Shown piece by piece: positions 3,001 through 39,593 of a stretch of 39,836 nucleotides of DNA. The DNA is from Jimgerdemannia flammicorona. Its lineage: Eukaryota. Where the stretch lies: NCBI GenBank assembly GCA_003990765.1, contig RBNJ01000134.1:1-39836 (forward strand), given 5' to 3'. A program made the translations under genes and the position numbers. The number at the start of each line of letters is the position of its first letter. Position 1 is the first letter of the stretch. The notes beneath the pieces are model-generated. The model had not been told where the DNA came from. It ran no database searches and was given only the letters and a program-made list of their open reading frames with translations.

Positions 3001-3307
3001 CAACTGTCAGCGAGCCCCATCCAGGCCTCTTCCATACACCCCACACCACATGCGACCCCCAATGTCCAATGTCCCCAATGTCCCCCATCCCTTTCCGAAC
3101 AAGAATACTCACTTTCCCCCTCCAAACTGCTGCACCCCCCCATTCCTTAGTCCAATCCTGTAAATCCACATCAGCCACGTACCTAACATCCTGTAACAAG
3201 AAGAGGTCCGCATCCAGATCCCGAAGCCAACCAAAAATGTACTTCCTCCTAGCCACCCCCCATAACCCATTAATGTTCAATGAGAATATCCTAGTTGTAC
3301 TATTCAT
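1..3307 (-). pseudogene. LINE ORF2: AP endonuclease - reverse transcriptase - CCHC-type finger
   Basis: Motifs SLNINGL, LFLLQD, GGDFN, SRID, WSDH; FLDQEKAYDRV, GVPQGDPLSP, AFADD; FECEDC..EHWLGKC near 70-150. Track ORFs 2423-3337, 809-2137 and 344-808 share one frame, broken by in-frame stops (five TGA, one TAG) with no frameshift. Confidence 0.93.
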
Positions 3308-3338
3308 ATTGGATATACAATATAGAAGAGACCTCAAC

Positions 3339-5081: not shown

Positions 5082-5339
5082 CCTCTCCCCTCCTCTGTGT
5101 CACAGACCTCCCCTTCCTCCGCCGCTGGGGCCACGGCTAGCCATTGAGGCCCCTGGCATCCCCAAACCATCTCCCCTCCTCCCCACCTGCTGCCAGTCAA
5201 AGGCGCCGTCACCCCCCTGGCCAGTACGCTCACCAGATCAATTATTGCCATCCATGTTATTAGTCGCCAGATACCAAAAATGTTGTCGAAAGTATTGTCT
5301 GAGTCTTGTGTCACCCGAATGTTACAGGTGAAAGGCGTG

Positions 5340-7790: not shown

Positions 7791-7797
7791 ATTTTCC
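7752..7797 (-). promoter_or_regulatory. Decayed -1 ribosomal frameshift signal (slippery heptamer + 7-nt spacer + 11-bp hairpin)
   Basis: Minus strand GGAAAAT-agcaagc-CCTCTCCAGTA-agactaatgg-TACCAGAGAGG. Restoring one CpG in each arm gives a perfect stem; the heptamer differs from GGGAAAC only by transitions. Confidence 0.7.
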
Positions 7798-8169: not shown

Positions 8170-8545
8170 ATTGGTACTTCTGAAATCTCCTTATCCTCTC
8201 CTAGTACTGTCCAACTGATTCACCTCTTGAATAGTAGGCTGTAATGTCTTGATGGACAGAATTTGGCAGATAGCTTCCAAGGGGTTGAAGACTTGGTAGT
8301 TCTTACTATTGTTACAAATAATGATCTTCAGAGGATCTTAGTAATCCTGATTAATAATTTCTCCTTCTACTGTGATTCCTTTGGCTATAGAAAGTACAAT
8401 TTGAAGGTCAAAGGTCCTAATGGTCCTAGGGCAGAGTATTGCCTAATAGGGGAGATAGAGGTCATAATCTACTAATCCTTCTATTTGTGCAAGAGAAAGT
8501 TGTGCCCAGGGTGACAATAGCTTGACTTGGATAATTGGCTGAGTC
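8170..8545 (-). pseudogene. Gypsy B trimeric dUTPase relic (motif II region deleted in frame)
   Basis: IQVKLLSPWAQL..VDYDLY..LSI/AKGITVEGEIINQDY..EAICQIL..STRRG*GDFRST. Confidence 0.85.
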
Positions 8546-8559
8546 TTGAGGAATGGTGT

Positions 8560-9340
8560 CTCAGTGATTACTACTGCAGGAGAGATCTTTATACATTCTG
8601 GCTTGAAGAATGGCCAATGTACTCCAGTTTTTGGATTCCTCATATAGTTAAATTCAGTTCTTCCAAATGGGTCTAAGGTTTCCATGAAGGTGAAGGTAAG
8701 GTTGACTCCTTATTTGCCTTGGTGTAGTTGGCAATACTAATGAACAATAGTAGGAATTTCTAGTGGTAGATCCCAGATAGAGGTCTTATTCTTGGCTTTA
8801 CAGTCTCCTTCATAATTGATCTCTTTGTATTTTCAGCAGGCCCAGTGAATTTGGGGTTCTTGCAAGATGGGATCCTTTCTCTTGGCTCAGCTTTTGTAGG
8901 TATCTTCACTGAGATGAATACTTTGATATTTATATTAGTAATAGGTAAAGGTCTTTTCACAATCACAGTATCTTTGCTTTACAAATTTCTCATTCTACTG
9001 TTTAATTTTCTTACTTGTTGGATACCTTTTTTGATATTTATCATAGGTAAGTAGAGTGATCTATAGAGCCTAAGTAATAGTGTGGAAACTGTTGTTTTTG
9101 TCTTCAATTGTGAGAGTCTCTAAAGGTTGGTAGGAGAGAATCTTCTGCTCTTCCTTATAGGTCTTCTTGAAAGTCTTTGGGGTGGATGACAATGTTCATG
9201 TGAGGACTGGGGCTTATTTTAACTCATCTTTATCTTCTTGGAACCTTTTTGAGATTAAGAATTCAGCAGTTGCTACAAGCATCTCTTGGTGAGTGAAAAC
9301 AGTTATAGTATTTACACATACCTAGGCAGAAGGCTTATAT
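8560..9340 (-). pseudogene. Gypsy B accessory region (Cys/His finger + unknown domain), homologous to C/D
   Basis: AFCLGMCKYYNCFHSPRDACSNC; TLLTYDKY..RYCDC..QSIHLSED; SIWDLPLEI; FMETLDPFGR..NPKTGVHWP. Confidence 0.75.
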
Positions 9341-9629
9341 AATTTAGTTTTTCTTCAAAGATAGTAGTGGTTGTATAGATAGTCCTATAAATCCAAGTGC
9401 TTCTTCTTCACTGATATCCCATTAAATGCTTTCCTCCAGACTTTCAGTATTGATGACATCAACAAAAAAGTCTTTTTGGCTACTTTCAGGATCTCTGGGG
9501 GTATTAAAATTACTTCTTAATTCTTGTAGAAAATTTGCTTCACTTTCATTCTCTATAATAGTAAGTATATCTCCATATCTTTGCCATTCAATCTCAGAAG
9601 CCTGATCTGTTTTCCTTAGTGATCCCTTT

Positions 9630-9990
9630 GACTCAATTGGTACCTTGTACTTTTGATCATAGAAGGTGAAGACCAGGAGTTATTTCTTGATGGCTCTAAC
9701 TTGATACAACCAGTTGGTTCCTAAAATCAGATTATAGGAGATCACTAGAGTTACAATAGCTTGAGGTACATTGAGGCAGACTTTTCTAACTTGAATGAGT
9801 ATGTCTCTAATTAGTCCAAAGGGGGTAGATGCTAATCTATCTGCCATAATAACTTTTGCTTTAGTTCTTTTATCAATTCTCTATCCAATCCTTTCTAGTA
9901 TTTGCTGGATAATAATACAGACTGCTGCTTCAGTATCAATAAGGATTCTAGCATTTTCACTATATACTTTCCCATTAGCCAGTCTTGTGG
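9630..9990 (-). pseudogene. Gypsy B aspartic protease
   Basis: ARILIDTEAAVCII ... YNLILGTNWL. Confidence 0.88.
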
Positions 9991-17597: not shown

Positions 17598-19276
17598 TGT
17601 GACCCTCATATATTATAGTTACTCTCATAGTTATCTAGTTACTACAGAAAATATATAAATAGTACCAGATACTCAGATTGAGACTACTGAACCTCAAAAG
17701 CACTATACCTTAAAGATACTGTACTCTAAGGGTACAATAGAAGTCACACATCATATTTAGCCATACTGTATATTTTATAATTAATCAGATAGCAACCACA
17801 ACTATATAAAATACCCTAGAGACAAGAGTGAATAAATCTCAGTCAGAAATTAAATCTAAAGCAATAGCTTCTCTTTCCACTCCAGTCTACTTTCTGATAT
17901 AAAGATTGCCTGAGATTTGCTACTAAAGTTTAAGTAAAGAACTTTGCCACCTTTTGAAGAGAAATCTACTGCTTAAGGAATAAGTTACTATATCTTGATT
18001 TACTTACCAGATAAGTCTGAAATTCCTCTTGCCACAAAGCCAGTCTTCTGATGCAACTTCATAATAGAGCCAGTCCATCTGATACAACCCCATGCAAATG
18101 AAGCTAGTCTTTGATATAACTTTGCCAAGAGAAGAGAATCTGAGTTATTCAAAAAGTCTGTTGATTCAGAAAGAATCTGTACTATCTGCAATTCCCAGAG
18201 AGTCCACCTTAAGAAAACTTGCCACAAGCTAGTCTATCTGATACAACTAGTGCTCTCAAAACGAATATTCGAATCAATTCAAAGTGGATATATATGGTAT
18301 TTGAATTGAATTGATTTGATTCAATTTGAATATTATTTTGATTTCCAAATTAGGATACAAACATTTTCCTCAATAACTCCATGAGTTTTCATCTGATTTT
18401 GATGTAACTAGTGTTTTTGGAAAGATCTCTATAATGGCTTTCCAATGATACTAAGATAACTGAAATCAGATGAAAACCTGTAGGTTATTGAGGAAAATGT
18501 TTGTGTTCTAATTTGGAAATCAAAACAATATTCAAATCAAATCAAATTAATTTGATTTGAATACCATATATATATATTCACTTCAAATTGATTTTAATAT
18601 TCGTTTTGGGAGCACTAGATACAACTTTGTAGTAAAGCCAGTCTCTTGATATAACTCTGTGCAAATGAAGCCAGTCCTTGATACAACTTGCTCAAGAATT
18701 TATCTGAGTTACTAAGTTATTCACTATCTGAGTTATTTCTCAGAAGAGCTAATTTAGAAAGAATCTACATCATCTAAATTATCTGAATTATTCAAATTAT
18801 CCATGTCTTTCAAGTTATCTGAGTTATTGAATTATTCACTACCCAAGTTATTTGAATTATTAAGTTATCCACTATTCTCAAAGAGCTTACTGATTCAGGA
18901 GAATCTGTACCAAATCAAGTTATCTATCAAATTATATAAGGAAACTGCCAAATTATCAGACTGCTTCATATAAGGTAATCTGTTATGCTATACAGAGATC
19001 ATTATGCAGAGATTGCTACTACTCAAGAAAGAAACTACTAAATTGCCAGACTATCATATATACTATATTATATACAAATCACTGCTATATTCAGAGAACT
19101 GTTCTAATAAGAAAATTGGCCATTATATTCAGATTGACTATTATACTACTAAATACCAAGGACCTTAAAAATTATAGAATATTTTATTACTTTTTGACAA
19201 AGTAACTGAGGACTCAAGCCAAACTACATCAACCCCTAATCTTGTAATTTTCCTCCATTGAGCCAGATATATTATA
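17598..19276 (+). repeat. 5' LTR of D (contains a MITE)
   Basis: tataaaataccctagagacaagagtgaataaa at ~17805 matches the C LTRs; followed by the PBS TTTGAGGGGCTCAACTGAGA at 19277. Confidence 0.8.
18248..18617. mobile_element. Foldback MITE, hAT-type (370 bp)
   Basis: TAGTGCTC...GAGCACTA termini, exact 8-bp TSD GATACAAC (18240-18247, 18618-18625); the two halves are reverse complements almost to the centre. Confidence 0.92.
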
Positions 19277-19861: not shown

Positions 19862-22800
19862 ATGGCCACCCCTTTGCCAACTTTTGCAGAATACTCAGAA
19901 GAAGACCCAAGAGAATTTCTTGATAGAATTGAAGAAATTGTAGCTCTGAAGAACCTCTCTCTCAAAAGAAAGATTGTTATCTATAAGGCTCAACTTAGAG
20001 AACCAGTCAAAGAAATCTTTACCTAAGCAAGAAATGACCTAAACTTAGACCTTGGAGTAGCTATCAATGGAGCACCAATCTGGCTAGCAGAGTATAAAGC
20101 CATAATCCACTGGCTTATCAAAAAAATATACAGAAAATGAGATCTACTATAAGGCCCAAGAGTCTATCATAGGAATGAAGATGAATCTTAGAGAATTATT
20201 CAGAGCATTCTTCATAATAATTCAAAAGAGAATATATGCTACTAGATTCAATACTACCAATCAAGACATTATAGGTCCAATGATCTTCATGAATGGGATT
20301 CTCCCAAATATTACTCAGTATATCTACACTCTAGGTATCAGAAGGTCTGAAGAGCAAGTAGATATAGCCCAAGAATTTTTTGATATCAGACAAGGAACCT
20401 AGAGTGACCATGACAAGAAGAATGATAAAGAAGATATTCTGGTTAAAGCCCTACAAGGACTCCTTCAAGGACAGGAGAGATCTAAAGAAAGAAAACCAGC
20501 TAAAGAATGAAAGAAGGATAGAAGTAAAATTTAAGACCTCAGTTCCAAGTTAGACTGATTGGTTGGACAGATTGAAAAACTCACCATATGTAAAAATCAG
20601 AGCTATCCACAAGATAACAGAGGATATATATCACAAAAGAACCAAAGTTATTCACCCAGAGATAACAGGAGCTATCATCAAGAAGAAAGAAAATACCCTA
20701 TCTAAGATAGAGCCCAAGTTTAGTGCTTCTACTGTGGACAATTCAGATACTATGCTACTAAATATAATAATAAAAAAAGTGACTAAAGGGACTCAGAATC
20801 ACCAAACTAAAGAAATGAAACCCAGTATAAGAGAACTGAAGTCTATCCTATCAAAGACTTTGAAGAAGAAAGCAATAGTAAAGACTATAGTAATCTAGAC
20901 CTATACCCAGTCAAAGTTATTATCAAAAAGTTAATTTATCTAGCAGAGAAAAGGAAGAGACCTATAGGAAGATCATCTAGGAACATTAGCAGAAGAATTA
21001 TCTAAGAAAAAGATAAAGGATATGAAGAAGAGCAAGTAGAAACACCTCTTTAATCTCTCTCATCTTTTGTTCCTGAAATAAATAAACTACTCCCAGATAA
21101 TAACAAAATAGAGTAAGAAGAACAGAAATCTGCTGCCCTGAAGCCTAAGAAGAAGTATACTCTGAAGACTATGCCTAGAGATATCTATAATGAAGCCTAG
21201 CAAAAGATTCAAGAAACCAAGATAGAAGTTCCTCTTCTGCAGTTTCTGCAACTGACACTAGCTAGAGTTTAAAACAAATTACTGAGAACTACCAGGTCTA
21301 GCACTGGCCAAGTCCCAATCCCATAGTAAGAAAAAGCTCCCACTCCTATTCAAGCTGTAGAGAGACATGTCAGTACCTATCTATATGGAGATATTAGAGG
21401 ACAAAAGGTGAAAATCTTCATAGATACAAAAGTAGCTGTCTATATCATTGTCAAATGATTTCTGGACACCCTCTAATGGCCTATTGATAGACCATTCAAT
21501 CTCAGCATCATAGTAGCAGATAGAGCCCAAACTCAATTCCTTAGAGAAGTATAAAACATCACTATCTTTCTGAGACATATTCCATTCTTTATCCCAAAAG
21601 CTGTTATCACTGAGACTGTTATCTATGATATGATTCTTGGTACCAACTAGATGAAGGAAATGAATGCAGTTGTTGATATTAGTCAATAAGTACTCAAGTT
21701 TGACTACTGAGGCAAGAAGTATAGAGTTAAGATGACTAGCTATAAGCAATCAAAGAAAAAGAAGAAGGTCACCATTCTAGAAGAATATACTTACAGTAAA
21801 GAGTCTACTATAGAAGAGTAAGAAGAATCTGAAGATAGAAATGATCTCAGGCTCAATCTCTGAATCAACCTAGTGGATGATGGGCCAGAAGATAATGTGT
21901 GAGCCAGAAATACTATCCCTATCACAATCAGAGCTATTGCAGAATAGATCAGAGGATATCCCATCTGTCTCAAAAGACACAAGTACTCTAAACACTCATC
22001 CAAGATCATTGAAACAAGGAATTTGCTTGGAACAGTCTGCCCTGAGTGTAGAAAAAGAAAGAAAAAATACAGACATATTCTGAAGACACCTATAGCTAAA
22101 GCTGCAGAAGTATAAGCAATTTGGGATCAAAAATCATCTGAGGAAGAAGAAACCCCCAAGCAAGAGGTTCCTAAACAAGAAGTATCCAAAGAAAAAGAGG
22201 TCCCCAAACTCATTCCCTGGGATGACCCTCACTAGATACTATCTGAAAACAATGATCCTTGGAATATTGAAGAAGAACTCATTACAATTCCCATTATCTC
22301 AAAGTGAGAAACATATCAGGAAAGAATCTTTTGGCTAGAAAGATGTTTACATCAAATGGTCTTCCACTCTTCCCCAGACTATTGCTACCAGTGCCATCTA
22401 CTGGATCAATAAGAAAGATAGAGACCCTAAAGGTCAGAACTCTTAACTACAATTATATAATCAACCACCTTTCAAGAAGTCACTATAAGGTTACAAAGTT
22501 GATTTAGAGAATAAGATCTCTTTACTCAAACAGAAGTATATCTCTTGGCCACCCTTCTCTCAACTTATAATTAAGATAAATACTGATTCCTAAGATAATA
22601 GGAGATTAATAGCCAGGAATAATATTTTGAGCAATAGAATATTGTAATTATAGAAGACACCCAGACTACCAAGACTACAGATACTAGAAGATTCACCACA
22701 GTCAGGATGTTGTAGTCCACACTTTAAAAAGAAGAGACAATAGAACCCAGATCTGAAAAAGCTAGACCAAGAAACTAAGAAGAAGAATTTTTAAGATCTA

Positions 22801-24258
22801 TAATTTGAGAGAAGATATTATAGCTCTTATCAGACATGTAACTCACTGAGGATGGATAGAAGATGCTATCAATTTTATGGAAGCCTAGACCCAATAAGAA
22901 AAAGAGGAATTAATTATCTCTGATATCTCTCTACTGGAGCCAGATGGCTACACCTCAATCTCAGAGCTTGAAGACTTTCTGTTAGAAGAGCTTCAGCCCA
23001 AGGATAGCCCAAACTCAGCAAGAATATTGCCCAGTATATTCTGCTACATCCTAAGGCCAAACTCCTGACCAAAGCTCACTAAGAAGATATAGAGTATGAT
23101 TTCTACAGTCTGGATGATGAACTCATCAAACCTGGAAAAACATTGGTGTTTAGAACTGAACTAGCCATATAGCAATTCAAAGATACTTATATCTAACTGA
23201 CCTCAAGGTCTGGACTTGTCAGACAGAGAGTAACTGTAAAAGGAGAAACTATGGATCTAGGATATATAGGCAAAATCAAGATCATTCTATATAACAGTAA
23301 TATAGAATAGTACTGATTTTTTGAAGGACAAAAGATTGCTCAAGCAGTCTTCATAAAAGTCAAGACTCCCTAATTATAAGAAGTCTCCAAACTGACTGAA
23401 GGAACAAGGCAAGCTAAAGGATTTGAAAGCTCAGACAAGAAGAAAGTATATCTCCTTTAGGTCAATTATCCCAAAAAGAATACTCCTCAGTAAGTATATC
23501 ACTAATCAGTCAAACTGCACAAGAATCTCATCCTGGAGTATAGAGAGCAAACTACCTTCAAAATCTTTACACTACCTAACTCCAGAAATCTCTTCTTCAA
23601 ACCCAATGAAAATATCCCAAACTTGGATATCAAGGGACATATATTTTCTGACAAGATGAATCCTGTATACTCATGAGCAACTAACCAGAGCTGAGAAAGT
23701 ATCACCTTATCAAAAGGAACCATCATAGGACACCTAGTGTCCTTCCTCAACTAAACTCACAGAGAAGTCTATGAGCTAAATCTATCAGGAAATAGCAAAA
23801 GGTTCTAGAAGAAAGAAAAGGCTCCTCTGTAATCCAGAAGACAGTAAAGCCTTCTACTAACATTGAAGAAGAATTGACACTCTAGCAATGGCAATAACTA
23901 ATAGAACTTCTTAATAAATATCAAGATATCTTCATCATAGACTATAGAAATCTATCATATAACTCACTATATCACTATAGTATAAATATAAGGAATATAA
24001 TACCCATCTGGTAGAAATCTTATAGAATACCCTATTATCTAAAAATATTTGAGAAAGAACAAATTTAGGAACTCTTAGATAATAAAGTTATCTGATCCTC
24101 TACCAACTCTTGAACCAGCCCTATACTTATTATACCAAAAGAAAGGAGGATAGAGACTCAGCATAGACTACAGAAAACTCAATTCAGTTACTAAAAAAAA
24201 TATATATCCTTTGCCCAGAATTGATGACCTCTTAGACTAGTTACAAGATATCAGATAT
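19862..24258 (+). pseudogene. Element D gag - PR - accessory region - dUTPase (~23020-23435) - RT start
   Basis: MATPLPTFAEYSEEDPREFLDRIE, CFYCGQFRYYATK(Y), FIDTKVA, YDMILGTN, TSRSGL, GQKIAQ, RQAKGFESSD, DYRKLNSVTKK. Confidence 0.9.
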
Positions 24259-26480: not shown

Positions 26481-29260
26481 TATCTAGACTCTTGGAGGAC
26501 TGGGTGAGACTGGTGACATTAGAGGGGGAGGAGGACTGGAGATTGATAAGAGTAAGAATGGAGGTGGTTGAACTACAACAGGTGCTGCGGAATGAGGAAG
26601 AGGCAAGGGTCCAGGGTCTAGTGATATGGCTTCATTAGCAGGAGAGAGTGGCCCTCAAAGTTTCTCACAAGAGCCCTTTAGGTGAGAAGGGTGCAACAAA
26701 GGTGGGAGGGGGTGCTTAATGCTGATGGTATATTGGTGTATAGTGTACAAGACATTCTTGGATCATTAAAGGAGCATTGGAGTAGATTGTGGAGTTAGGA
26801 GGAGGGTGGGGCAGATACTGAGGACATTGACTGAGTATTAGAGGGTTGGCACCCTATATGAGCAGATGGGCTGGGTGACTTAGTACTGCTGGTGCAAGAG
26901 GAGGAGATCCACTAGGTTCTTGCCATGATAACCTTGGGTATGGTGCCTGGGAAAGATGGTCTGCTCTGGGACTTCTGGAAAAAGATGGTGGGAGTCCCAG
27001 GAGTACTGGGAGAGATGATGGTACTGTGTGATTGGATTCTACAGATGGGGAGATGGGTGGGAGAACAGGATCTGGGGCTGGTGACATTACTTTATAAGAA
27101 CAAAGGAAGGCGAGAGGACTGGAAGAACTAGAGGCCGATTATGCTACTGGATATGGACAGAAAGTTGGTTACCAAGGTAGTGGTCACAAGATTGCAAAGG
27201 GTGGCCCAGCAAGTCTTGGGGGATGAGCAGAGGGGATTTGTGAGAGGCTGGCTCATCAGGGATAGCACAGCATAGATTCATGGAGTTATTGAAGGGGCAC
27301 GAGCCAGTGGACTAGATGGATATCTGGTCTTTCTGAACCAGGAGAAGGCTTATGACTGAGTGTAATGGGTCTGGCTGGTGAAAGTATTGGATAGGATTGG
27401 GATCCCACACCAGTTCAGGACAGCCATAGTCAACCTACTGGAAGGAAGTAGGGCTGTACATATATAATAGACACAGAGGAGTAGCATTTCCCCTGAGTAG
27501 GGGGGTGCCCCAGGGGGACCCACTGTCTCTCATTTTGTATGCTCTTTCTCTAGAGCCCTTCATAGACAGAATCAGGCAGAAGATAGTGGGGCTCTCTATC
27601 TTTGGCATTAGGTAGAAAGTAGGGGCATTTGCAGATAACATAGTGGTCAGCCTGGGATCAATTGCAGATGTTGAGAAGCTCAAGGAAATAGTGGAGTGGT
27701 ATGAGGTGAACTCAGGGGCTAGACTTAATTGGTATAAGTGCAAAACAATAGTGTTAGGCAATGGTCTGATGGGAGGGGAGATTATTGGTACCATTGTCCC
27801 TGCTGGTGAGGTAGTATGGTACTTGGGTATTTATCTGTCAGTATATAGGTCAGTTCTGCCTAGACTTTGGTGGGAGCAGCAGGTTGGCATCTGGGAGGAG
27901 GCCCTGCAGAGTTGGGGGGGCCACCAATTGTCTCTGGCAGGATGCGTTTTGATTCTGAATGTCTATTGGCTGCCAAAGTTGTGATATCTGGCTTATCATC
28001 TAGACTTCCCAGCTTAGGTGGTGAAGTGATTGATGAAGCTGGCCAAGGGATGGATCTGGGCTAGAAGGTGGAGTCAGATCAGCTGGGAGGTCTTGTCCTT
28101 ACCAGTGGTAAGTGGGGGACTTAGGCTGGTTGACTTTCCTAAGAGGCTGTACTGCTTAAGAGCATGGTGGCTGAAGAGAGTGGTGGAGTTAAGAGGGGGT
28201 GGTTGGGTCTCTCTACTGCAGAAAGTCTGGGAGATGAGGTCCTCTCCAAGGGGTTCAACTGGTGATCTCCTAGCACTTATGGGCCTTCAGAACACCAAAC
28301 AATTGTAATACAAAGGCTTCTGGTAGGGAGTGGCAGAGGGGGTGTGCTGCATTGGAATTAGGTGGCAGGGAAATGAAGAAGAGGCAGCTTGGGACCCAGT
28401 GATATGGAGATGGGACCAAGTGTTACTGGGTGGCATTTCCTTGATTGAGTTTGATATTGGTGATGGGATCGAATGCCAATGGGAACCAGGCCAGGACCTG
28501 TGGCCTAGCAGTTAGCAAGGAGTAGGAATTAGTGAGGAGTGGAACTGGCGTAGTATTTGGGCCTGGAGTGCCGAGGTGAGGAGGTGGCTGCTGCTGAAGT
28601 ACTGGGTGGTCTGGTGGTGTGTGCTGAGGCAGAATGTCATGCTCAACTTCCACTCAGATTATCTTATCGAGAGAGGTTGCTTCGACTGTAAAGAGTGTTA
28701 TAATGTAGGGCAGGAAGGGGGATATACATATGCAGATGCCTGAACATTGGCTAGGAGAGTGTGAGGTACTTAGTATCTTTTGGTAGAACATTGGGGATCA
28801 TTTGGGGGTAGTGTGTAGGGGAGCTGGCATGTGGGAGCGATGGGAGGATTTAAGGAATAGATTGGAGAGAGGGGTGGGGAAGGAATAGCTGACATTAGGC
28901 TGGGCTTTGGCCATTTGGGTGGGGCTGGCCAGTCACTGATTATTTGTTTTTGAGGATGGGAGGAGACTTGGCTCAGAGGTCAGGCTGCTGAGGTGGCATA
29001 GCCTTATGGAAGACACCTCGATGGACTGGTGGCTTAGTTGGGGGTTGCAGGGGGGTCGAAGGCATTGTTTGGTAGAGAAAATCTGTAGGCAGAGTGGGGG
29101 GAGAGTGGGAATTGCAGGTGAGAAAGTGGTCTTTGTCCATGTGGGTGGGGGAAGTGATACCCCTATGGGGATCAGGTAGTGGGAGGATATACTGTAAACT
29201 TATTGATAGACCAGTAATAAATGGCAGAGTCCAAGTGACTATAAAAATAAAAAAAAAAAA
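26481..29260 (+). mobile_element. L1/Tx1-clade LINE (copy 2), 5'-truncated, poly(A)-tailed
   Basis: LLYKNKGRREDWKN, QEKAYD, GVPQGDPLS, AFADN, FDCKEC..EHWLGEC. A-tail at 29241-29260; degenerate TSD tgtagtaatcttgagac (26464) / tgtagcaatctcaaaac (29262). Confidence 0.93.
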
Positions 29261-29376
29261 TTGTAGCAATCTCAAAACCCAACCAGGTGATGTAGACATT
29301 AGCATAGCATAGTAACCAGTAACCATTGCTGTGGAAAATGTATAAATAACCCAGATAGCTAAAGAAAGAAAAAACC

Positions 29377-29466
29377 CTGACAGTGGCTGTTACTCTAACA
29401 GTGGCTATCACCCTAACAGTGACTGTCATTCTGACAGTAGCTGTCACTCTGACAGTGAATGTTACC
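29377..29466 (+). repeat. 5 x 18-bp palindromic tandem array in the LTR (also 38642-38731)
   Basis: Consensus cTGACAGtggCTGTCAcy. Confidence 0.88.
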
Positions 29467-30391
29467 CCATAAATAGCATTCTATAGTTAGTCATATAGCA
29501 ACCAGATAGCAACCACAATGTATAAAATATCCCAGAGACAAAAGTGAATAAACTTCAGTCTAAAATACAAATATCAAAAAAGTCTCTAAAGATTGAGCAT
29601 TGGTCCCCTTTCCACTTCAGTCTACTTTTTGATACAAAGCTTGAAGTTTGCTGCCTTTAGAACTATTGGTTCACTTGCCAGATAAGCCTGAAGATCTCTG
29701 CCCAAGAGAAAGCCACCTTGCTCAAACCAGTTTCTGATACAACTTCACAGTGATCTGTTCATGCAAATGAAGTCAGTCTTTAATGCAACTTTGTCAAGAG
29801 ACCTTTTCCAAGAAGCCTGCCAATTCAGGAAGAATCTGCATCAGTAGTATTCCCAGTTGAAGCTGCTAATTTAGAAGAATCCACACTACCTGAGTTATTA
29901 TTCCCAGAAGTCTGCTGATTCAGGAAGAATCCATAATATCCGAGTTATCTGAGTTATCTGCATTACCTGCCATTTTCAAGTTATCTACATTCCTAGTTGA
30001 AGCTGCCAATTCAGGAAGAATCCATGACATTCGAGTTATCTGTATCACCCAAGTTATTCCTTTGTTCTCAGTAAGCCTGGTACAGAAGAATTTGCTGCCA
30101 GTACAATTCCCAGTAAGAAGGATCTATACCTTCCTCCATCCCCAGTGAGCCAAATCAAGTTATTTGCCAAATTATCAGAATGTCTACATAAGGAACCCAT
30201 TATGCTATACAGAGATTATCATATAGAAATCATATAAGGAGAACTACTAAATTGCTAGACTATCACACTCAGAAGATTGTTACACTACACAGAGATTGTT
30301 GCACCAAGACCATCATCCAGAAATTGCATACTTTTGGAAATTGCCTCACTATACAAATTGTGGCATTCCCAGTTGACCTAAGAAGGAAGCC

Positions 30392-30997: not shown

Positions 30998-31534
30998 GAT
31001 TTCAAATTGACATGACTTTTCAGCTCATAAGAACCCATAGTCAAACTGGATACATTTGACACAACACCAATCTCTACTACTACAGGAGAACCAGTTATCA
31101 CCAGCATTTAGACAGGAAGAGAAGTAATCACATTAAGACTTGCTAACTACCCAGTATCAGAAAGATCTCAACCAGAAGCAGGAGGCAGTACAGCCCAAAA
31201 TCCCCAACCAGATCAACCAGAGAATATAGGCAGCCCTACTAGAGATTTTGGAGAACTTGTACAAGAACTAGAAGATCTTATCACATAAATCTGAGACCTT
31301 ACAGCCAGATGCCCCATACCAGTTCCATCAATCTCACCAATAGAACCTTTACCACAACTCCTTGCAGAATTAGAAGTAGCTTCTAAAAGAATACCTAGAC
31401 TTATTTCACTTTGTCCAAGGTCCTGAACACTATCCTCAAGATACCCAAGTACCTCCACCTCCAGTAATAGTTCAGAAAGTGAATCAGAATCAGAATCCGA
31501 ACTTGAACCAGAATCAGAAGAAAGTGATGATGAA

Positions 31535-34500
31535 ATGGCCACCTTATTGCCAACCTTTGCAGGATACCTGGAGGAAGACCCCAGAGAATTCCTTGATAGA
31601 ATTGAAGGAATTGCAGTCTTGAGAAATCTCTCAGATGAAAGAAAAATTGCCATCTACAAAGCTCAGCTCAGAGAACCAGCCAGAGAAATTTTCTACTAAA
31701 CAGCAAATAACCCAGATTCAGAACTAGCAAGACAGATACAAGCAGCAATATCTTATGAGCTAGAATATGAGGCCATGGTCCACTGGCTCATTGAAAAGTA
31801 TGCAGGAAATGAAACCCACCATAAGGCTCAAGAATTCATCATAAAGATGAAGATGAATCTTAGAGAATCACCCAGAGCCTTCTTTACAAGAATCCAGAAG
31901 AGAATACATGCTGCTGGATTCAATGCCACCAACCAGAACATCATAGGTCCAATGATCTTCATGAATGGAATTCCCCTGAATATTGCCCAGCATGTCCACA
32001 CCCTAGACATCAGAAGGTTGAAAGAATAAGTAGATATAGCCTAAGGATTCTTTGATGTCAGACAAGAAACTATCTGGAGTAATTATGATAAGAAAGAAGA
32101 TAAAGAAGATATCCTGGTCAAAGCCCTACAAGGACTCCTTCAAGGACAAGAAAGATCTGAAGAAAGAAGGCCAGCTAAGGAAGGAAAGAAGAACAGAAGC
32201 AAAATTCAAGATCTCAGCTCCAAGTTGGACCGATTGGTTGGACAGATTGAAAAACTTATCACATGTGAAAATTGGAGCTACCAAGACAACAGAGGACACC
32301 AGAGAAACCAAGGTTATCCACCAAGAGATAATAGGAATTACCAGCAGGAAGAAAGAAGGTACTCTGTCTAAGACAGAGCCCAAGTCCAATACTTCCACTG
32401 TAGACAATTTGGGCACTATGCTACTGAATGTGACAATAAAAGAAGTGACTGAAGGGACTCAGAACCACCAAACTGAAGGAATGACACTTAGTACAAGAGG
32501 ACTGAAGCTCATCCTATTGAAGATTTTGAGGAAGCCAGTAATAGTGAAGACTACAGTAACCTAGACTTATATCCTACCAAAGTTATCACCCAAAAAACAG
32601 TTTACCTAGCAGAGAAGAGGAAGAGACCTATAGGAAGGCCATCCAGGAATATCAGCAGAAGAATTATCCAAGAGGAGAATGAAGAACATGAAGAGAAGTA
32701 GGTAGAAATACCTCTCTGAACCCCCTCTTCTTTTGTTCCTGAGACAAACAAGTTGCTACCAGAAGATGAAGAAATGGAACAAGAAGAATGAGAACCTGCT
32801 ACTCCAAAGCCCAAGAAGAAGTACACTTCAAAGACCATGCCTAGAGATATCTATAATGAAGCCTGGTAGAAGATTTAAGAGATCAAGATAGAAGTCTCCC
32901 TCCTGCAGTTCCTATAACTGACACCAACTAGAGTCTGAAACAAATTGCTGAAAACCACCAGGTCTAGCACTGGCCAAGTTCCCATCCCACAGCAAGAACC
33001 AGCTTCCATTCCTATTCAGGCCACAGAAAGATATATCAGTACCTACTTATATGGAGATATTGAAGTACAAAAGGCAAAGATTCTTATAGATACAGAAGCA
33101 GCTATCTATGTCATTGCCAAATAGTTCCTGGACACCTTCCAATGGTCCATTGATAGACCATCTAATCTCAGCATCATAGTGGTAGATGGAGTCCAAACTC
33201 AACCCCTTGGAGAAGTATGAAATATTACTATCTCCCTGGGACACATTCAGTTCTCCATCCCAAAAGCTGTTGTCACTGAAGCTATTACCTATGACATGAT
33301 TCTTAGTACCAACTGGATGAAGGAAATGAATACAGTTGTTGACATCGGTCAACAGATACTCAAGTTTGACTACCAAGACAAGAAGTATAGAGTTAAGATG
33401 ACTAGTTATGAACAATTGAAAAAGAAAAAGAAGGTCACTATTTAGAAAGAATATGCCAGCAGTGAGGAGTCTACTATAGAAGAGGAAGAAGAATCTGAAG
33501 ATGGAAATGATCCTAGACTCAATCCCCAAATTAACCTGGTAAATAACAGACCAGAAGACAATGTGTGGGCCAAGAACACCATCCCTATCCCCATTGGAGC
33601 CATCACAGGAGAAATTAAAGGATGCTCTACCTGCCTCAAGAGACATAAGTGTCCTGAGCATTCCTCCAAGATCATAGGAACAAGGAAATCACCTGGCACA
33701 GCCTGTGCAGAGTGCAGAAAGAAGAAGAAGAAATCCAGACATATTCCAGGAATACCTGCAACTGAAGCTGCAGAAGTACAAGCAATTTGGGGGTCAAGAA
33801 TCATCTAAGGAAGAAGAAACTTCTGATCAAGAAGTCCCTGAACAAGAAGCACCTGAAGAAGAAGAGGTCCTCAAACTCATTCTCTGGGATAATCTTCATT
33901 AAACACTACCTGAAGACAATGACCCTTGGAATACAGAAGAAGGACCCAGTACAATCACCATTATCCCCAAGAAAGAAACTCACCAAGAAAAGACTTTTCA
34001 GCTAGGAAGATGTCCACATCAAATGGTCTTCCACTCTTCCCAAGACTACTGCTATCAGTGCCATTTACTAGACCAATAGGAAAGACAGAGACCCCAGAGA
34101 CCAGAACCCCCAAACACACTTGCACAGTCAACTACCTTCTAAGAAATTACCACCAAGTTGCAAAGCCAATTCAGGGGACAAGGCTTCTTTACCCAAACAG
34201 AAATATATCTCTTGTCTACTCTTCCACCTACTTATGACTAAGATGGATACTGATTCCTAAGGCAATAAGAAATTAACAGCCAGGAATACCATTTTCGAGC
34301 AATAGGATATTGCAACCATGGGAGACACCCTGACTGCTGAGACTGTAGACATCAGAAGATTTACCTCAGTTATGATGTCACAGTCCATACTTTGAAGAGA
34401 GGAGACAACAGAGGCCAGATCTGAAAAAGCCAAACCAGGAAGTCAGGAAGAAGAATCCTCAAGATCTATGATTTGGGAGAAGACATCCTAGCTCTCATCA

Positions 34501-35501
34501 GACATACAATCCACCAAAGATAGGCAGAAGATGCCACCAACTTCATGGAAGCCCTAGACTCTACAGGAAGAAGGGGAATCATCTATCTCTGAGACCCCTC
34601 TACTGGAGCCAGATGGCCACACCTCAACCTCAGAGCCTAGAGGCTCTCTGCTAGTAAAGTCTCAGCTCTAGGACAGCCTGAACTCAGTAAGGATATTGCC
34701 CAGTATGCTCTGCTGTACCCCAAGGCCAAACCCCCAACCAAAGCCCACCCAGAAGATGTAGAGTATGATCTTCACAGTCTGGAGGATGAATCTATCAAAT
34801 CTGGAAAAACCTTCATGATCAGAACCAGATTAGCCATGCAGCCACCCCAAGGATCTTACATCCAACTGACCTCAAGGTCTGGACTTGCCAGACAAGGAAT
34901 AACTATGGAAGGAGAAACCATTGACCCAGGATATATAGGCAAAATCAAGGTTATCTTACATAATAGCAGTACAGAATAGCACTGAATCATTAGAGGACAG
35001 AAGATTGCCCAAGCAGTCTTTATGAAGATCAAGACCCCACAGTTACAAGAAGTCTCTGAACTAACTGAAGAAATAAGACAAGCTAAGGGATTTGGAAGTT
35101 CAGATAGGAATGAAGTATATCTCCTTCAAGTCAACCATCTCAAGAGGAATGTTTCTCAGCAAGTATACTGGCAATCAGTCAGACTGTATAAGAATCTTAT
35201 CCTGGAGCCCAGAGAACAAGCTACCTTCGAAATCTTTGCACCACCCAACCTCAGGAACCTTTTCTTTGAACCCAGGGAAAATATCCCACACCTAGATATA
35301 GAGGGACACATATTCCCTGACAAGATGAATCCAGTACACTCCCGAGCAACCAACCAAAGTTGAGAGACCATCATCTTGTCAAAAGGAACCATCATAGGAC
35401 ATCTGGTGCCTTTTCTCAACTGAACTCATAGGGAAGTTTATGAACTAAACCTATCAGAAAATGGCAAAAGGTCTCAGAAGAAAAGAAAGGCCCCTCTGTG
35501 A
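31535..35501 (+). pseudogene. Element C ORF1: Gag - zinc knuckle - protease - Cys/His fingers - unknown domain - dUTPase - dUTPase-like domain
   Basis: MATLLPTFAGYLEEDPREFL; (C)FHCRQFGHYATEC at ~32390; ILIDTEAA at 33080 in the Gag frame. The single 1-nt slip at ~33790 is absent in D. Confidence 0.88.
34689..35105 (+). pseudogene. Element C trimeric dUTPase domain
   Basis: All five motifs: VEYDL, SRSGL, ETIDPGYIG, GQKIAQ, RQAKGFGSSD. Confidence 0.93.
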
Positions 35502-37990
35502 CCCAAGAGACAGTAAAGCCTTTCACCAACATTGGAGAGGAATTGATACTCCAACAAAACTAGTAGAACTTCTCAACAAATATCAAGATATCTTCACTAC
35601 CGATTATGGTAACCTGCCATACAATCCATCATATCACTACAGTATAAATATAAGAAACACAACACCCATCTGGCAGAAACCCTATAGAATAGAAAACATT
35701 CAAAAAGAAGCACATTCAAGAACTCTTAGACAATGGGGTCATCTGACTCTCTACCAGCCCCTGGGCCAGTTCTATACTTATTGTACCAAAGAAAGGAGGA
35801 TAGAGACTCTGCATGGATTACAGAAAACTCAATTCAGTCACCAAAAAGAATGTCTATCCTCTGCCCAGAATTGATGACCTCTTGGATCAGTTACAAGATA
35901 CCAGATACTTCAGCAGTATGGATCTCTTCGCAGGATTCCATGAGATCCCCATAGACCCCAAGGACATTCAAAAGACAGCCTTCCTTACTCTAGAAAAACT
36001 GTTTGAGTACCTCTGAATGCTCTTTGGACTTTGCAATGCACTCCCCACCTTTCAGAGGATGATGAATTCAGTCTATACCCCCTTGATTCACCACTGTCTG
36101 ATTGTATACATGGATGATTCCAACATCTATTCAGCAAATTTTGAAGAATACCTGTACTACCTAGAGAAATTCTTCAAACTCACCTGCAAGAACCACTTGA
36201 GACTGAATGCAAAGAAATGTTACTTTGGGAAACAGAAACTTGAATTCCTTGGATTCATAGTTTCAAAAGAAGGAATCCATGCAGACCCAAAGAAAACTGA
36301 GAAGATTAACAATTGGCCAGTATCCAAAACCCTGAAGGAAACACTATCATTTCTGATGTTAGTATCCTACTACAGAAGGTTTATCAAAGACTTTGCCCAA
36401 ATTGCTGCCCTGATTCAAATCCTTCTTAAGAAAGAAGTGCCATTCAAATGGACAGAAACACAAGAAAAAGCCTTCAGAGAACTCAAGAACTACATGACTA
36501 TAGCACTAATTCTTGTATACCCCAATCTACAGAAGCCATTCATCTTATATATAGATGCTTCTAAAGATATCCTTGGGGAAGTTCTGGCCTAAGAAGGACC
36601 CAATCAACAGCACCATGTGATAGCTTATGTAAGCAGAGCTACCCGTTAGCAGCAGATAAACTATAGTAGTACCAAATTGGAATACCTTGTAGTCATATGG
36701 GCAGTCATCCTGTTCAAGCATTACCTCATTGGAAAAAGGTTCACCCTGATCACAGACCATGTAGCCCTTAAGTAGCTATTCAACTACAAGGAACCCACTG
36801 GGATCCTAGCCTGCTGGATCTTTATCCTTCAGGATTACAAAATGACCATCATTTATAAAGCAGAGAAAGCCTACAATAATGTTGATGTACTTTCCCACCA
36901 GCCCCAATGAACCAGAAGGGTGTCCCAAGGAACTATACCCTAAAGAAAGCTCCTCAGACCATCAAGACACAAGAAGATCTCATCTGAAAAGAATATCAGA
37001 AAGCCCATCAAGGATAGGTGAATATAGAAGAGAAGTTGTGAACAATACACCAACATTGGCCCAACCTCAGAACACAAGTCTAGGACATAGTTAAGAAATG
37101 TGATATCTACCAAAAGTACCAAGGAAGGAAGAACTATCAAGCACTACTGTAACCAATTGCACTACCAGACAACATCCTTCAGAGATGGAGAGTAGATGTA
37201 ATTGGACCTCTACCAGTTATACTAAGAAGAAACAAATATATCCTTATATTTATAGAACATCTGACCAAGTGGCCCAAGGCTTTTCCAATGGAAATTGCAG
37301 ATGCCTTAACTATTGTAGGCCTCCTCTATAGACTCATACTCAGATATAGACCCCCAGAAGAACTTATCTCTGACTGAGGCACAGAATTCATCAATAACAT
37401 AATCACAAGTTATGCCCAAATTCACAAGATCTACCTCAAAAGGACTATATCATATCACCCTCAGACCAATGGTATGACAGAGAGAATGAACCAGACCATC
37501 AAGAAAGAACTTGTCTGAGTCAATTCTACTAATTGGGACCTCTGCTTACCTGAGATTCTATGGAAATTTGGAACACCCCTACTGCCTCTACCAAACAAAA
37601 GCTATTCAAAATGGTGTTTGCCAAGAAAACCAGAACTGCTGATCATGAGAATCTTGAAGACCTCCTCAAGAAGGCAGAACAATTACATAATCAAGCCTGA
37701 GGACAGATTATCAAAGCCCAAGAAAGACAAAAGAAGTATTATGACCAGAAATAGAAAGATCAGAAGATCAAAATTGGTGATCAAGTCCTAGTTTGGAGAA
37801 GTATAATAGAAACAAACTTTGCTACTAAACTGGAACTAAAATGAGAAGGACCATACCTTATATACAACATCAGAGAAACCAGCATCTATATAAGAAGCAT
37901 GAATGGACATGTCTTGAGAACTCCAGTCCACATCAATTGCCTCAAGATATACCTGTACAAATCATGACTCAGAGGATAGATCAACATCTC
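35463..37990 (+). pseudogene. Element C ORF2: RT - RNase H - integrase (GPY/F motif, no chromodomain)
   Basis: DYRKLN..YPLPRIDD, FGLCNA, YMDD (~36106), YIDAS, LITDH, WPNL..CDI, VDVIGPLP, YHPQTNG, EGPY (~37850). Confidence 0.95.
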
Positions 37991-38470
37991 CAGACCCTCA
38001 TCCTCAGCTCTTTCCAAGCCCTGCCAATTCTTCTGCCCCAATTTCACTAACTTGAAGGAACCTCCATACAATTGATCCAGAAGCATCAAGAGAACCTTGC
38101 CATTGCCCAGAGGTTACTTCAGATCTACTATCTACAAGTCTTCTACAACATTGGACAGCTATTGACAGAACAACCTTACATAAGGAGCCTAATCAGAATT
38201 ACTCTCAGAGAAGCAAGAACTGCCAAATGAATCTACACCCTATACAATTGAAATGTTGGAGCCCTGGTGCAGTCTCACTTCTATCTCAATAATATCCATC
38301 AGATGAATGAGACCACCTTTCAGAGTATTCTTCAACAAATAGACATCCTGTTTCTCGAAGAACAAGAAGAAGATCCAGAGCTAGAATGGAGTGACCCTGA
38401 TATAGACAATGAAGATGATGGAATGGGTATAGATGCAGAAGCAGCTTATACTTATTGGGATAATGACTGA
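37964..38470 (+). pseudogene. ORF3 after the integrase (168 codons, helical core + acidic tail), function unknown
   Basis: ATG at 37964 to TGA at 38470 in one frame, with three internal stops explicable as CAA/CGA transitions. Confidence 0.75.
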
Positions 38471-38509: not shown

Positions 38510-39593
38510 TGTGACAAACCACAAAATATAGTAATCTCGAAATCCAACCAGATGACATGAACATTAGCATAGCATAGTAACTAGCAACCATTGCTGTAGA
38601 AAATGTATAAATAACCCAGATAGCTAAAGAAAGGAAAAACCCTAACAGTGGCTGTTACTCTGACAGTGGCTGTCACTCTGATAGTAGCTGTCATCCTGAT
38701 AGTAGCTGTCACCCTGACAGTGAATATCACCTCATAAATAGCATTCTATAGTTAGTCATATAGTAACCAGATAGTAACCACAATATATAAAATACCCCAG
38801 AGACAAGAGTGAATAAACCTCAGTCTGAAATATAAATACCAAAGAAGCCTCTAAAAATTGAGTATTAGTCCTCTTTCCACTCTGGTCTACTTTCCAATAC
38901 AAAGCTTGAAGTTTGCCACCAAGTTCAAGAAAGAACTTTGCCACCTTTAGAACTATTGGTTCACTTGCCAGATAAGCCTGAAGATCTCTGCCTAAGAGAA
39001 AGCTGCCTTGCTCAAGCCAGTTTCTGATACAACTTTACAGTAATCTATTTATGCAAACAAAGCCAGTCTTTAATGCAATTTTATCAAGAGACCCTTTCCA
39101 AAAAGCCTGCCAATTCAGAAAGAATCTATGTCAGTAGTATTCCTAGTTGAAGCTACTAATTCAGAAGAATTCACACCACCTAAGTTATTATTTCTAGAAG
39201 TCTACTGATTCAGAAAGAATCTGTGATATCTGAGTTATCTGAGTTATCCACATCATCCACTATTTTCAAGTTATCCACATTCCTAGTTGAAGCTGCCGAT
39301 TCGGGAAGAATCTGCAACATTCAAGTCATCTGCATCACCTGAGTTATTCCTTTGTTCCCAGTAAGCCCAATATAGAAGAATCTGCTACCAGTATAATTCC
39401 CAGTAAGAAGGATCTGTACCTTCCTCCATCTCCAGTGAGCCAAATCAAGTTATTCATCAAATTATCAGAACATCTACATAAGGAACCCATTGCATTACAC
39501 AGAGATCATTATACAGAAATCACATAAGGAGAACTACTAAATTGCCAGACTGTCACACTCAGAAGATTGTCACACTATACAGAGATCATTGTA
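38510..39593 (+). repeat. 3' LTR of C, interrupted ~290 bp before its end
   Basis: Colinear with the 5' LTR until agagatcattgta. Confidence 0.92.

What the first reader, a model, noticed from the sequence alone, without database searches (positions are those of the whole stretch)
33410..34690. Conserved ~430-aa uncharacterised accessory region between protease and dUTPase in two divergent gypsy families
Seen: C/D and the otherwise diverged B share colinear blocks. TFQLGRCPHQMVFHSSQDYCYQCHLLD vs AFCLGMCKYYNCFHSPRDACSNC*ILN; TLPPTYD..GYCNHG..C*DCRHQKIYLSYD vs TLLTYD..RYCDCE..YKYQSIHLSED; FMEALDSTGRRGIIYL*DPSTGARWP vs FMETLDPFGRTEFNYMRNPKTGVHWP. C/D add a further cluster, CSTC-x3-HKCPEH-x14-CAEC. 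I do not recognise this as a standard Metaviridae domain. Protein-level conservation implies past selection (inference).
Basis: partly seen in the sequence, partly recalled or inferred. Interest (0 to 1): 0.78.

Follow-up and report, generated by a model that had tools for sequence, protein, structure and literature searches.

The report
Orphan zinc-finger module beside retrotransposon dUTPase
Dead gypsy-type jumping genes here carry a real, strongly conserved but unnamed protein module of small cysteine/histidine fingers between their protease and their dUTP-destroying enzyme; it was probably made as abundantly as the capsid protein and most likely helped that enzyme work where the element copies its genome.

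Summary
Confirmed. In two Ty3/gypsy families, 370-440 in-frame codons separate protease and dUTPase. Open natural copies align at score 296 against shuffles of 40±6. Only three blocks are shared: finger ZnA (28 aa), finger ZnB (49 aa) and block 3 (52 aa). They are as conserved as protease and dUTPase, and an intact metagenomic polyprotein has all three. Inherited transversions give dN/dS about 0.06 in both families. No family library names the module.

Two additions. (1) Gag, protease, module and dUTPase form one frame that stops after a G_GGA_AAC/T heptamer kept in both families, with RT in the -1 frame (48 of 54 and 23 of 24 junctions). This suggests Gag-level expression. (2) ZnA also follows the dUTPase in two unrelated families (hhalign 96%), though a third dUTPase family lacks it.

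Best reading (0.4): a nucleic-acid or protein tether for the dUTPase, like betaretroviral NC-dUTPase. An F-box is not supported beyond one helix. The scan found this module before on other DNA of this genome (e1-7415948, e1-7553069, e1-7553689).

The parts
29258..30296 (+). 5' LTR of element D (family 1)
   Evidence: 85.5% identical to 38523-39586; 130 of 131 differences are transitions
31031..32431 (+). Gag region ending in a CCHC zinc knuckle (32396-32431), same frame as the protease
   Evidence: single-frame translation with scattered stops; zf-CCHC weak, E 0.047; coordinates
33032..33400 (+). Aspartic protease
   Evidence: Pfam gag-asp_proteas E 0.002 in D, 1e-10 in an open copy
33401..34703 (+). 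Accessory region of D (about 434 codons; 12 stops, one frame break near 33790)
   Evidence: open in frame in natural copies L061 and L050
33623..33715 (+). Family-1-specific Cys/His cluster (C-x2-C-x3-H-x-C-x2-H-x14-C-x2-C)
   Evidence: seen directly; not shared with family 2 or P0001; few variants, shared transversions 0N/1S
33990..34073 (+). ZnA: AF-x2-G-x-C-x-H-x3-F-(H/Y)-S-x4-C-x2-C finger
   Evidence: 15 of 28 and 14 of 28 identical to family 2 and P0001; also in P0003, P0004; AF2 pLDDT 86
34230..34376 (+). ZnB: Y..(F/W)..E..F-x3-G-x-C-x-(H/C)-x5-11-C-x2-C-x5-H-x-S-x-D finger, net basic
   Evidence: 19 of 49 and 18 of 49 identical; alignment; charge
34464..34619 (+). Block 3: helical L(P/G)x(E/D) segment plus A-x-D-P-x-G-x2-G-x-N-Y...W-P
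   Evidence: 22 of 52 and 16 of 52 identical; F-box likeness limited to one helix
34704..35102 (+). dUTPase
   Evidence: Pfam dUTPase E 1e-23
35103..35453 (+). Second conserved domain, read as a degenerate dUTPase-like fold (label recalled, no call names it)
   Evidence: 41 of 115 identical to P0001; shared transversions 0N/4S
35456..35462 (+). Position of the putative -1 frameshift heptamer (degraded in D); the first frame stops about 19 codons later
35569..37950 (+). RT, RNase H and integrase, beginning in the -1 frame relative to the dUTPase frame
   Evidence: Pfam RVT_1, RT_RNaseH, rve; frames
38523..39586 (+). 3' LTR of D
21735..22950 (+). Accessory region of element C (family 1, more decayed); ZnA 22329-22406; heptamer position 23787-23793
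8527..9634 (-). Accessory region of element B (family 2), with its own extra W-x-C-x2-C-x3-N-H-x3-C cluster at 8800-8844; heptamer position 7791-7797

Best explanation
[quoted passage not shown] SHOWN: the frame layout, purifying selection, three conserved blocks, ZnA beside dUTPases of unrelated families, a confident small fold for ZnA. INFERRED: (a) frameshifting at G_GGA_AAC/T, so module and dUTPase are made about 1:1 with Gag, well above RT, and packaged; (b) ZnA and ZnB each bind one zinc; (c) after proteolysis the fingers and the basic C-terminal half stay with the dUTPase and hold it on the element's RNA/cDNA or on a particle protein, keeping dUTP low where reverse transcription happens. 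It would work like the NC-dUTPase fusion of betaretroviruses, with a different finger standing in for nucleocapsid, which the protease separates from the dUTPase in this lineage. The window copies are dead, broken mainly by C>T/G>A hypermutation.
For: One stop-free frame from before the protease through the dUTPase-like domain in natural copies (L061 968 aa, L087 866 aa) and in P0001, whose 1179-aa ORF ends about 40 residues after the same point. The zero frame stops within 52 codons of the heptamer in 54 of 54 family-1 junctions and within 31 codons in 24 of 24 family-2 junctions; upstream domain in frame 0 with pre-RT motif in -1 in 48 of 54 and 23 of 24. G_GGA_AAC/T in 31 of 54 and 19 of 23 junctions, the rest differing by transitions; G_GGA_AAC is among the most shift-prone heptamers (PMC5009743, passages). 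dN/dS 0.06 on inherited transversions, like the family-1 dUTPase (0.06) and both proteases (0.00, 0.04). ZnA sits directly after the dUTPase in families f5 and f6, whose proteases are only 17-25% identical to this lineage's: HMM 10.3 bits against a maximum of 4.0 in 1000 shuffles for f5, hhalign 95.8%, E 7.8e-9. The half nearest the dUTPase is net basic, the half nearest the protease acidic, in all three lineages. Precedents: M-PMV NC-dUTPase is proposed to localise the enzyme at nucleic acid (PMC1802613, passages); rotifer Juno elements have a dUTPase followed by an extra zinc knuckle (PMC5408684, passages).
Against: No binding of zinc, nucleic acid or protein was tested. Family f4 has Gag-dUTPase-protease with no finger, so the finger is not required. 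f5 and f6 already have nucleocapsid next to the dUTPase, so ZnA is not simply its substitute. ZnA itself is only weakly basic (+1 to +2) and lies about 240 residues from the dUTPase in this lineage. The f6 finger alone does not beat shuffles (-0.8 bits; 99th percentile 1.3). Protease cleavage sites are unknown. The structure downstream of the heptamer folds no better than shuffles in 3 of 4 copies tried (z -0.28, +1.18, +0.98; -1.81 in D). The junctions were found with anchors that contain the heptamer (up to 5 mismatches allowed), which favours copies that kept it. P0001's DNA could not be fetched, so its slip site was not seen. The dUTPase tree split that separates finger-less f4 has only 75% support.
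Confidence: 0.4

Rival explanations
1. Counter-defence adaptor: block 3 is a degenerate F-box (or similar ligase-recruiting helix) and the fingers capture a host restriction or uracil-repair factor for degradation, in the manner of lentiviral Vif/Vpr (analogy recalled).
For: L-P-x-E-(V/I)-x3-I at the same place in family 2 and P0001. F-box-like_2 is the only Pfam hit on a block-3 piece, E 0.18. hhalign against 30 host F-boxes gives 27%, against at most 0.4% for five control profiles. The host has at least 148 F-box-like matches and 5 Skp1 matches. Elements suffer heavy C>T/G>A attack.
Against: The Pfam hit is on 1 of 4 block-3 pieces and below cut-off (12.3 vs 21.6 bits). An HMM of host F-boxes scores the ORFs at -1.9 to -5.0 bits, inside the shuffle range. 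The hhalign match covers only 18 columns, the first helix. Family 1 lacks the proline. The best-kept residues of block 3 (DPxGxxGxNY, WP) are not F-box residues.
Confidence: 0.2
2. Particle-assembly or trafficking module, unrelated to dUTP: an abundant Gag-frame product (like retroviral p12/pp24 spacers, recalled) that binds capsid, chromatin or host transport factors; its closeness to the dUTPase reflects only a tolerated insertion site.
For: Gag-level frame position. Long acidic linkers are also under strong selection (shared transversions 1N/4S and 1N/6S in family 1). Acidic tryptophan motifs upstream of ZnA recur in family 1, P0001 and P0004. P0003 and P0004 carry ZnA in short ORFs of unknown context.
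Against: ZnA recurs right beside the dUTPase in two unrelated families with a different gene order, which a neutral insertion site does not predict. Blocks ZnB and 3 were not detected in those families.
Confidence: 0.25
3. The fingers regulate or stabilise the dUTPase trimer itself (protein-protein role, no nucleic-acid tether).
For: Direct fusion 20-30 residues after the dUTPase in f5 and f6; finger-bearing dUTPases share R-S-S and E/G-G-G-(V/T) signatures in most cases and fall apart from f4 and the host-like enzyme.
Against: All five dUTPase motifs (labels recalled) are present in the natural copies without help; the finger's distance and side differ between lineages; tree support is 75%.
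Confidence: 0.12
4. A neutral spacer or decayed captured fragment kept only because the polyprotein frame had to stay open.
For: About two thirds of the region does not align between families; the AF2 model of the whole core is poor, pLDDT 39; all window copies are broken.
Against: Block identity equals protease and dUTPase; Cys/His/Gly/Trp are invariant over three to five lineages; dN/dS 0.06.
Confidence: 0.03

Closest known systems
dUTPase-bearing fungal Ty3/gypsy elements (PosPlaTy3-5 of Postia placenta; Phanerochaete and Tuber elements; PMC2864245, passages read)
   Same: dUTPase between protease and RT in a gypsy element.
   Different: The passages read mention no Cys/His accessory region before the dUTPase and the text has no occurrence of 'frameshift'; the paper's figure and old .doc supplements were not seen, and the sequences were not compared.
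Betaretroviral NC-dUTPase fusion (M-PMV, MMTV; PMC1802613 and PMC4531489, passages read)
   Same: Zinc fingers in one product with a dUTPase, made without the final frameshift into pol; proposed to localise the enzyme at reverse transcription; G_GGA_AAC is used by SRV-1 (PMC2995055, passages).
   Different: There the fingers are the CCHC nucleocapsid, the order is NC-dUTPase-protease and two frameshifts are used. Here non-CCHC fingers follow the protease, and one frame change follows the dUTPase region.
Bdelloid rotifer Juno elements (PMC5408684, passages read)
   Same: Gypsy-like, dUTPase between protease and RT, with an extra zinc-binding motif beside it.
   Different: Their extra motif is described as a Zn knuckle after the dUTPase, within pol; here three other blocks lie before it, in the Gag frame.
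Alpharetrovirus gag-pro / pol layout (Rous sarcoma virus; protease position recalled)
   Same: Protease in the Gag frame, -1 frameshift into RT-IN.
   Different: No dUTPase or accessory fingers; different virus family.
F-box domain (Pfam PF12937, PF13013)
   Same: L-P-x-E-(V/I) followed by an amphipathic helix in 2 of 3 lineages.
   Different: Second and third helices not matched; scores within the null range.

Membership tests
Ty3/gypsy (Metaviridae) LTR retrotransposon | Order PR-RT-RH-IN between two LTRs, no env | tested here: met
   Pfam hits in this order, LTR pair; the 3' ORF was not scanned for env likeness
dUTPase-bearing gypsy elements | Trimeric-type dUTPase domain between PR and RT | tested here: met
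   PF00692 E 1e-23 to 4e-29
Described gypsy/retroviral domain (Pfam, NCBIfam, PHROGs, PDB sequences) | Accessory region matches a curated model at its cut-off | tested here: not met
   best hits sub-threshold (zf-ChsH2 E 0.03, Zn_clus E 0.03)
F-box domain | Sequence match over the ~45-residue three-helix motif | tested here: not met
   Pfam 12.3 bits on 1 of 4 pieces; host F-box HMM within null; hhalign 27%, 18 columns
F-box domain | Three-helix fold | tested here: inconclusive
   AF2 shows helices 225-238 and 246-254 at pLDDT about 40
F-box domain | Binds Skp1 | not testable with these tools
   needs a binding assay
CCHC nucleocapsid knuckle (as in NC-dUTPase) | C-x2-C-x4-H-x4-C spacing | tested here: not met
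   ZnA is C-x-H-x10-C-x2-C and ZnB C-x-(H/C)-xn-C-x2-C; no zf-CCHC hit in the region
Known zinc-finger fold (for ZnA) | Structural match to a solved finger | tested here: inconclusive
   confident 47-residue model; fold searches give no usable verdict for so small a domain
Zinc-binding domain | Four conserved Cys/His ligands | tested here: met
   C, H, C, C invariant in 6 of 6 finger sequences from six lineages; metal binding itself not testable
Programmed -1 frameshift site | X_XXY_YYZ heptamer in the zero frame, downstream ORF in -1, zero-frame stop nearby | tested here: met
Programmed -1 frameshift site | Stable stimulatory RNA structure 5-9 nt downstream | tested here: inconclusive
   11-pair hairpin (family 2) and possible pseudoknot (family 1) begin 7 nt downstream and pair in most copies, but copies are related and folding z-scores are not significant
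Programmed -1 frameshift site | Measured frameshift product | not testable with these tools
   needs a reporter assay or ribosome profiling

The most novel reading that the evidence does not exclude
These elements evolved a lentivirus-like accessory protein, made at capsid stoichiometry by placing the -1 frameshift after it: new-type zinc fingers that travel between unrelated gypsy lineages together with the dUTPase capture a host uracil-repair or cytosine-deamination factor, and a degenerate F-box helix hands it to the host SCF ligase. That would be a two-part anti-uracil defence (dUTPase plus targeted degradation) in a fungal-type retrotransposon.
Probability: 0.12. Interest if true: 0.85.

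Novelty: new variant of a known kind. Interest (0 to 1): 0.5.

Why it matters
dUTPases in gypsy elements are known and unexplained. This lineage adds an unnamed finger family that recurs beside dUTPases in unrelated element families of one genome, and a layout (protease, module and dUTPase before the frameshift) that predicts these parts were abundant in the particle. ZnA is a 30-45 residue unit with a confident model, so zinc, nucleic-acid and partner binding can be tested directly. The result would show how retrotransposons keep uracil out of their cDNA, or reveal a counter-defence protein. Limits: function is untested, the window copies are dead, and relatives outside this genome are only three database proteins.

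Tried and rejected
Homolog searches: word-indexed search with the family-1 region found nothing among 2891 candidates of 532-1694 aa. A second run used the wrong length class, 2065-5000 aa, and found nothing. A third returned only P0001 among 4627 candidates. The full HMMER scan gave 4 hits; I dropped P0002 as a low-complexity repeat lacking the motifs. No relatives in viral contigs, metagenome contigs (42; one search returned only an unrelated dUTPase locus), prokaryote genomes (109) or phage records (108). ESM Atlas gave no usable hit twice (21, 54), which shows neither absence nor novelty.

Structure: the whole-core model was poor (pLDDT 39) and its Foldseek rows meaningless (69). The confident ZnA model had no match in PDB Foldseek (83), BFVD (84, best E 4.4) or the wide aligner (82, best Z 2.3); this does not show a new fold. 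Complex prediction of block 3 with host Skp1 gave no verdict (0.26 against a mark of 0.34, alignment not used) and is not used either way.

Other ideas: likeness to ichnovirus rep proteins (recalled; PF12132) found no candidate in the genome, with no positive control. A pattern for a further C-x-H-G type ZnA in the genome found 0. ZnA and ZnB as duplicates is weak (hhalign 20%). The window-copy comparison used a wrong frame and was redone. Family-1 and family-2 RT rows failed and were redone.

Literature: seven searches answered. No listed title or abstract start describes this module; PMC3248453 has no occurrence of dUTP, zinc finger, F-box or frameshift. Subscription papers and Repbase/GyDB entries were not searchable, so the module or the layout may be recorded there.
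Full report
SETTING. The window is contig C134 of G000, a 231-Mb eukaryotic assembly. I read the host as a fungus; that is inference from its intron-bearing Skp1 genes, large F-box family and mutation pattern, not a taxonomic result. The window holds a LINE (A, 1-5100; endonuclease and RT) and three gypsy relics: B (minus strand), C and D. C and D are one family (77% over 5.2 kb); B is a second family. Both are abundant: 2190 and 1259 first-look candidates, 150 scored each. All three window copies are dead. D's LTRs are 85.5% alike, and 130 of 131 differences are transitions; against an open copy, 121 of 190 changes in the accessory region are C>T or G>A, most frequent at CpG (19 of 44 sites) and CpA (46 of 197).

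OBSERVATION. All quoted blocks are present. The accessory region of D runs from 33401 to 34703, with 12 stops and one frame break near 33790. Window copies B and D align above chance in two frames (98 vs shuffle maximum 71; 66 vs 53; 0 of 500 each). Natural copies elsewhere in the genome are open from before the protease through the dUTPase (L061, 968 aa; L087, 866 aa). Their accessory regions (439 and 373 aa) align at 296 against 40.3±6.1 in 1000 shuffles.

ANATOMY. A profile of the two families, run over 1.84 billion representatives, returned four proteins. P0001 is an intact 1179-aa Gag-protease-module-dUTPase polyprotein from a metagenome (E 2e-19). P0003 and P0004 are short ORFs with ZnA only. 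P0002 is a spurious repeat and was dropped. Across family 1, family 2 and P0001, three blocks are conserved: ZnA 15 and 14 of 28, ZnB 19 and 18 of 49, block 3 22 and 16 of 52, compared with protease 54 and 60 of 123 and dUTPase 54 and 60 of 133. Each block beats 500 of 500 shuffles; linkers and the family-1 cysteine cluster do not. Family 2 has its own extra cysteine cluster. So the shared core is about 130 residues in variable linkers, acidic towards the protease and basic towards the dUTPase.

SELECTION. Using one natural copy per family as reference, 85 and 31 distinct aligned stretches were scored. Transversions shared by three or more copies, which mostly predate insertion, give 9 nonsynonymous to 29 synonymous (dN/dS 0.06) in family 1 and 4 to 13 (0.06) in family 2. 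Private changes give 0.35-0.92. The family-1 dUTPase gives 0.06 and the proteases 0.00 and 0.04; the family-2 dUTPase gives 0.47 on six changes. Per-block counts are small. The acidic linkers were constrained too.

IDENTITY. No curated family matches: Pfam, NCBIfam, PHROGs, PDB sequences. AF2 on ZnA with seven rows gives a confident helix-hairpin-helix (pLDDT 86, pTM 0.60). C, H, C, C are invariant in six lineages, which fits one zinc site; ligand geometry could not be measured. The whole core did not fold (pLDDT 39). I suspected an F-box in block 3. One of four pieces hits F-box-like_2 below cut-off, an HMM of 30 host F-boxes scores within the null, and hhalign gives 27% over the first helix only, against at most 0.4% for five controls. 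It is not filed as an F-box; an earlier scan note (e1-7553069) reached the same view.

EXPRESSION LAYOUT. In D, Gag, protease and the first part of the module share one frame. In both families that frame stops shortly after the dUTPase-like domain (37 of 54 junctions at codon 19 after the heptamer; 20 of 24 at codon 31), and the pre-RT sequence lies in the -1 frame (48 of 54; 23 of 24). The two families, with no DNA alignment across the module, both keep G_GGA_AAC/T there (31 of 54, 19 of 23), and P0001's ORF ends at the same place. G_GGA_AAC is a well-known shifty heptamer (PMC5009743, PMC2995055, passages). An 11-pair hairpin (family 2) and a possible pseudoknot (family 1) start 7 nt downstream, but fold no better than shuffles in three of four decayed copies. 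The junction anchors included the heptamer, which biases the heptamer count though not the frame offset. I infer a programmed -1 frameshift after the dUTPase region, so that module and dUTPase are made at Gag level. One search for this layout in gypsy elements listed only the general review; two look-ups of the scan's notes that included frameshift words returned one note lacking a word, and nothing.

ZnA TRAVELS WITH dUTPases. The genome has 8265 dUTPase candidates. Among 41 loci read (30 top hits and 11 chosen for long open frames) were a host-like enzyme and three more gypsy families. f4 is Gag-dUTPase-protease with no finger. f5 and f6 are Gag-dUTPase-finger-protease-RT in one frame. Their proteases are 17-27% identical to this lineage's against 33-48% within groups, and their RTs 42-45% to D against 57-60% among themselves. 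The f5 finger scores 10.3 bits on a ZnA profile (shuffle maximum 4.0 of 1000); f6 alone is not significant; the f5/f6 profile matches ZnA at 95.8%. Finger-bearing dUTPases fall apart from f4 and the host-like enzyme with only 75% support.

MECHANISM. The best-supported reading (0.4) is a dUTPase-associated tether: abundant, packaged, zinc-binding modules that keep the enzyme at the site of reverse transcription, as proposed for M-PMV NC-dUTPase (PMC1802613, passages). Against it: f4 does without the finger, f5 and f6 have nucleocapsid beside the enzyme already, and nothing was shown to bind. Rivals are a particle or trafficking role (0.25), a counter-defence adaptor (0.2), a dUTPase regulator (0.12) and a neutral spacer (0.03).

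COMPARISON AND VERDICT. Membership of Ty3/gypsy and of the dUTPase-bearing kind is met (PMC2864245 reports a dUTPase between PR and RT in PosPlaTy3-5; PMC5408684 a dUTPase plus extra knuckle in Juno; passages only, figures and old .doc supplements not seen). The module belongs to no family I could test. It is a new variant of a known kind. Interest 0.5.

Noticed in passing
window 35456-35462 (D), 23787-23793 (C), 7791-7797 (B, minus): The frame change lies after the dUTPase region, not between gag and protease, at a G_GGA_AAC/T heptamer shared by both families.
   Followed up: yes
L192-L202 (e.g. L200:1110-1262, L194:1664-1816 minus): Two unrelated gypsy families carry a ZnA-type finger directly after a dUTPase placed between Gag and protease, in a single ORF with RT.
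   Followed up: yes
L163-L191: A further abundant gypsy family has the betaretrovirus-like order Gag(NC)-dUTPase-protease with no finger; its dUTPase is closest to the host-like enzyme L162 (weak support).
   Followed up: partly
window 37964-38470 (+): A decayed ORF of about 165 codons, helical-looking with an acidic tail, between integrase and the 3' LTR of D; earlier scan notes describe such a third gene.
   Followed up: no
window 35103-35453: A second conserved domain after the dUTPase, under selection and present in P0001, with no Pfam hit; read from memory as a degenerate dUTPase-like fold.
   Followed up: partly
window 33446-33808 (+1 frame); L015, L028, L050: An alternative frame over the acidic linker stays open for 120-329 codons in several copies; probably a by-product of GAA-rich sequence, since synonymous sites in the main frame vary freely.
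   Followed up: no
window 18247-18618: A 372-bp imperfect palindrome (80%) inside the left end of element C, possibly an inserted non-autonomous element.
   Followed up: no
window 29258-30296 vs 38523-39586: LTR divergence is almost purely C/T and G/A transitions (130 of 131), in all dinucleotide contexts but strongest at CpG and CpA: RIP-like or methylation-linked hypermutation, which makes LTR dating unreliable.
   Followed up: partly
window 1-5100 and 26946-28767: A GC-rich LINE with long open frames (endonuclease, RT) that keeps its CpGs, unlike its neighbours, and a diverged second LINE fragment (65%) in the opposite orientation.
   Followed up: no
L124-L128: At least four divergent Skp1 paralogues and about 150 or more F-box-like matches in the host genome.
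   Followed up: no
L061 near residues 418-435; P0001 near 611-630; P0004: Acidic tryptophan motifs (W-D-x..., E/D-W-N/D) precede ZnA in three lineages and follow the finger in f6; possibly short linear binding motifs.
   Followed up: no
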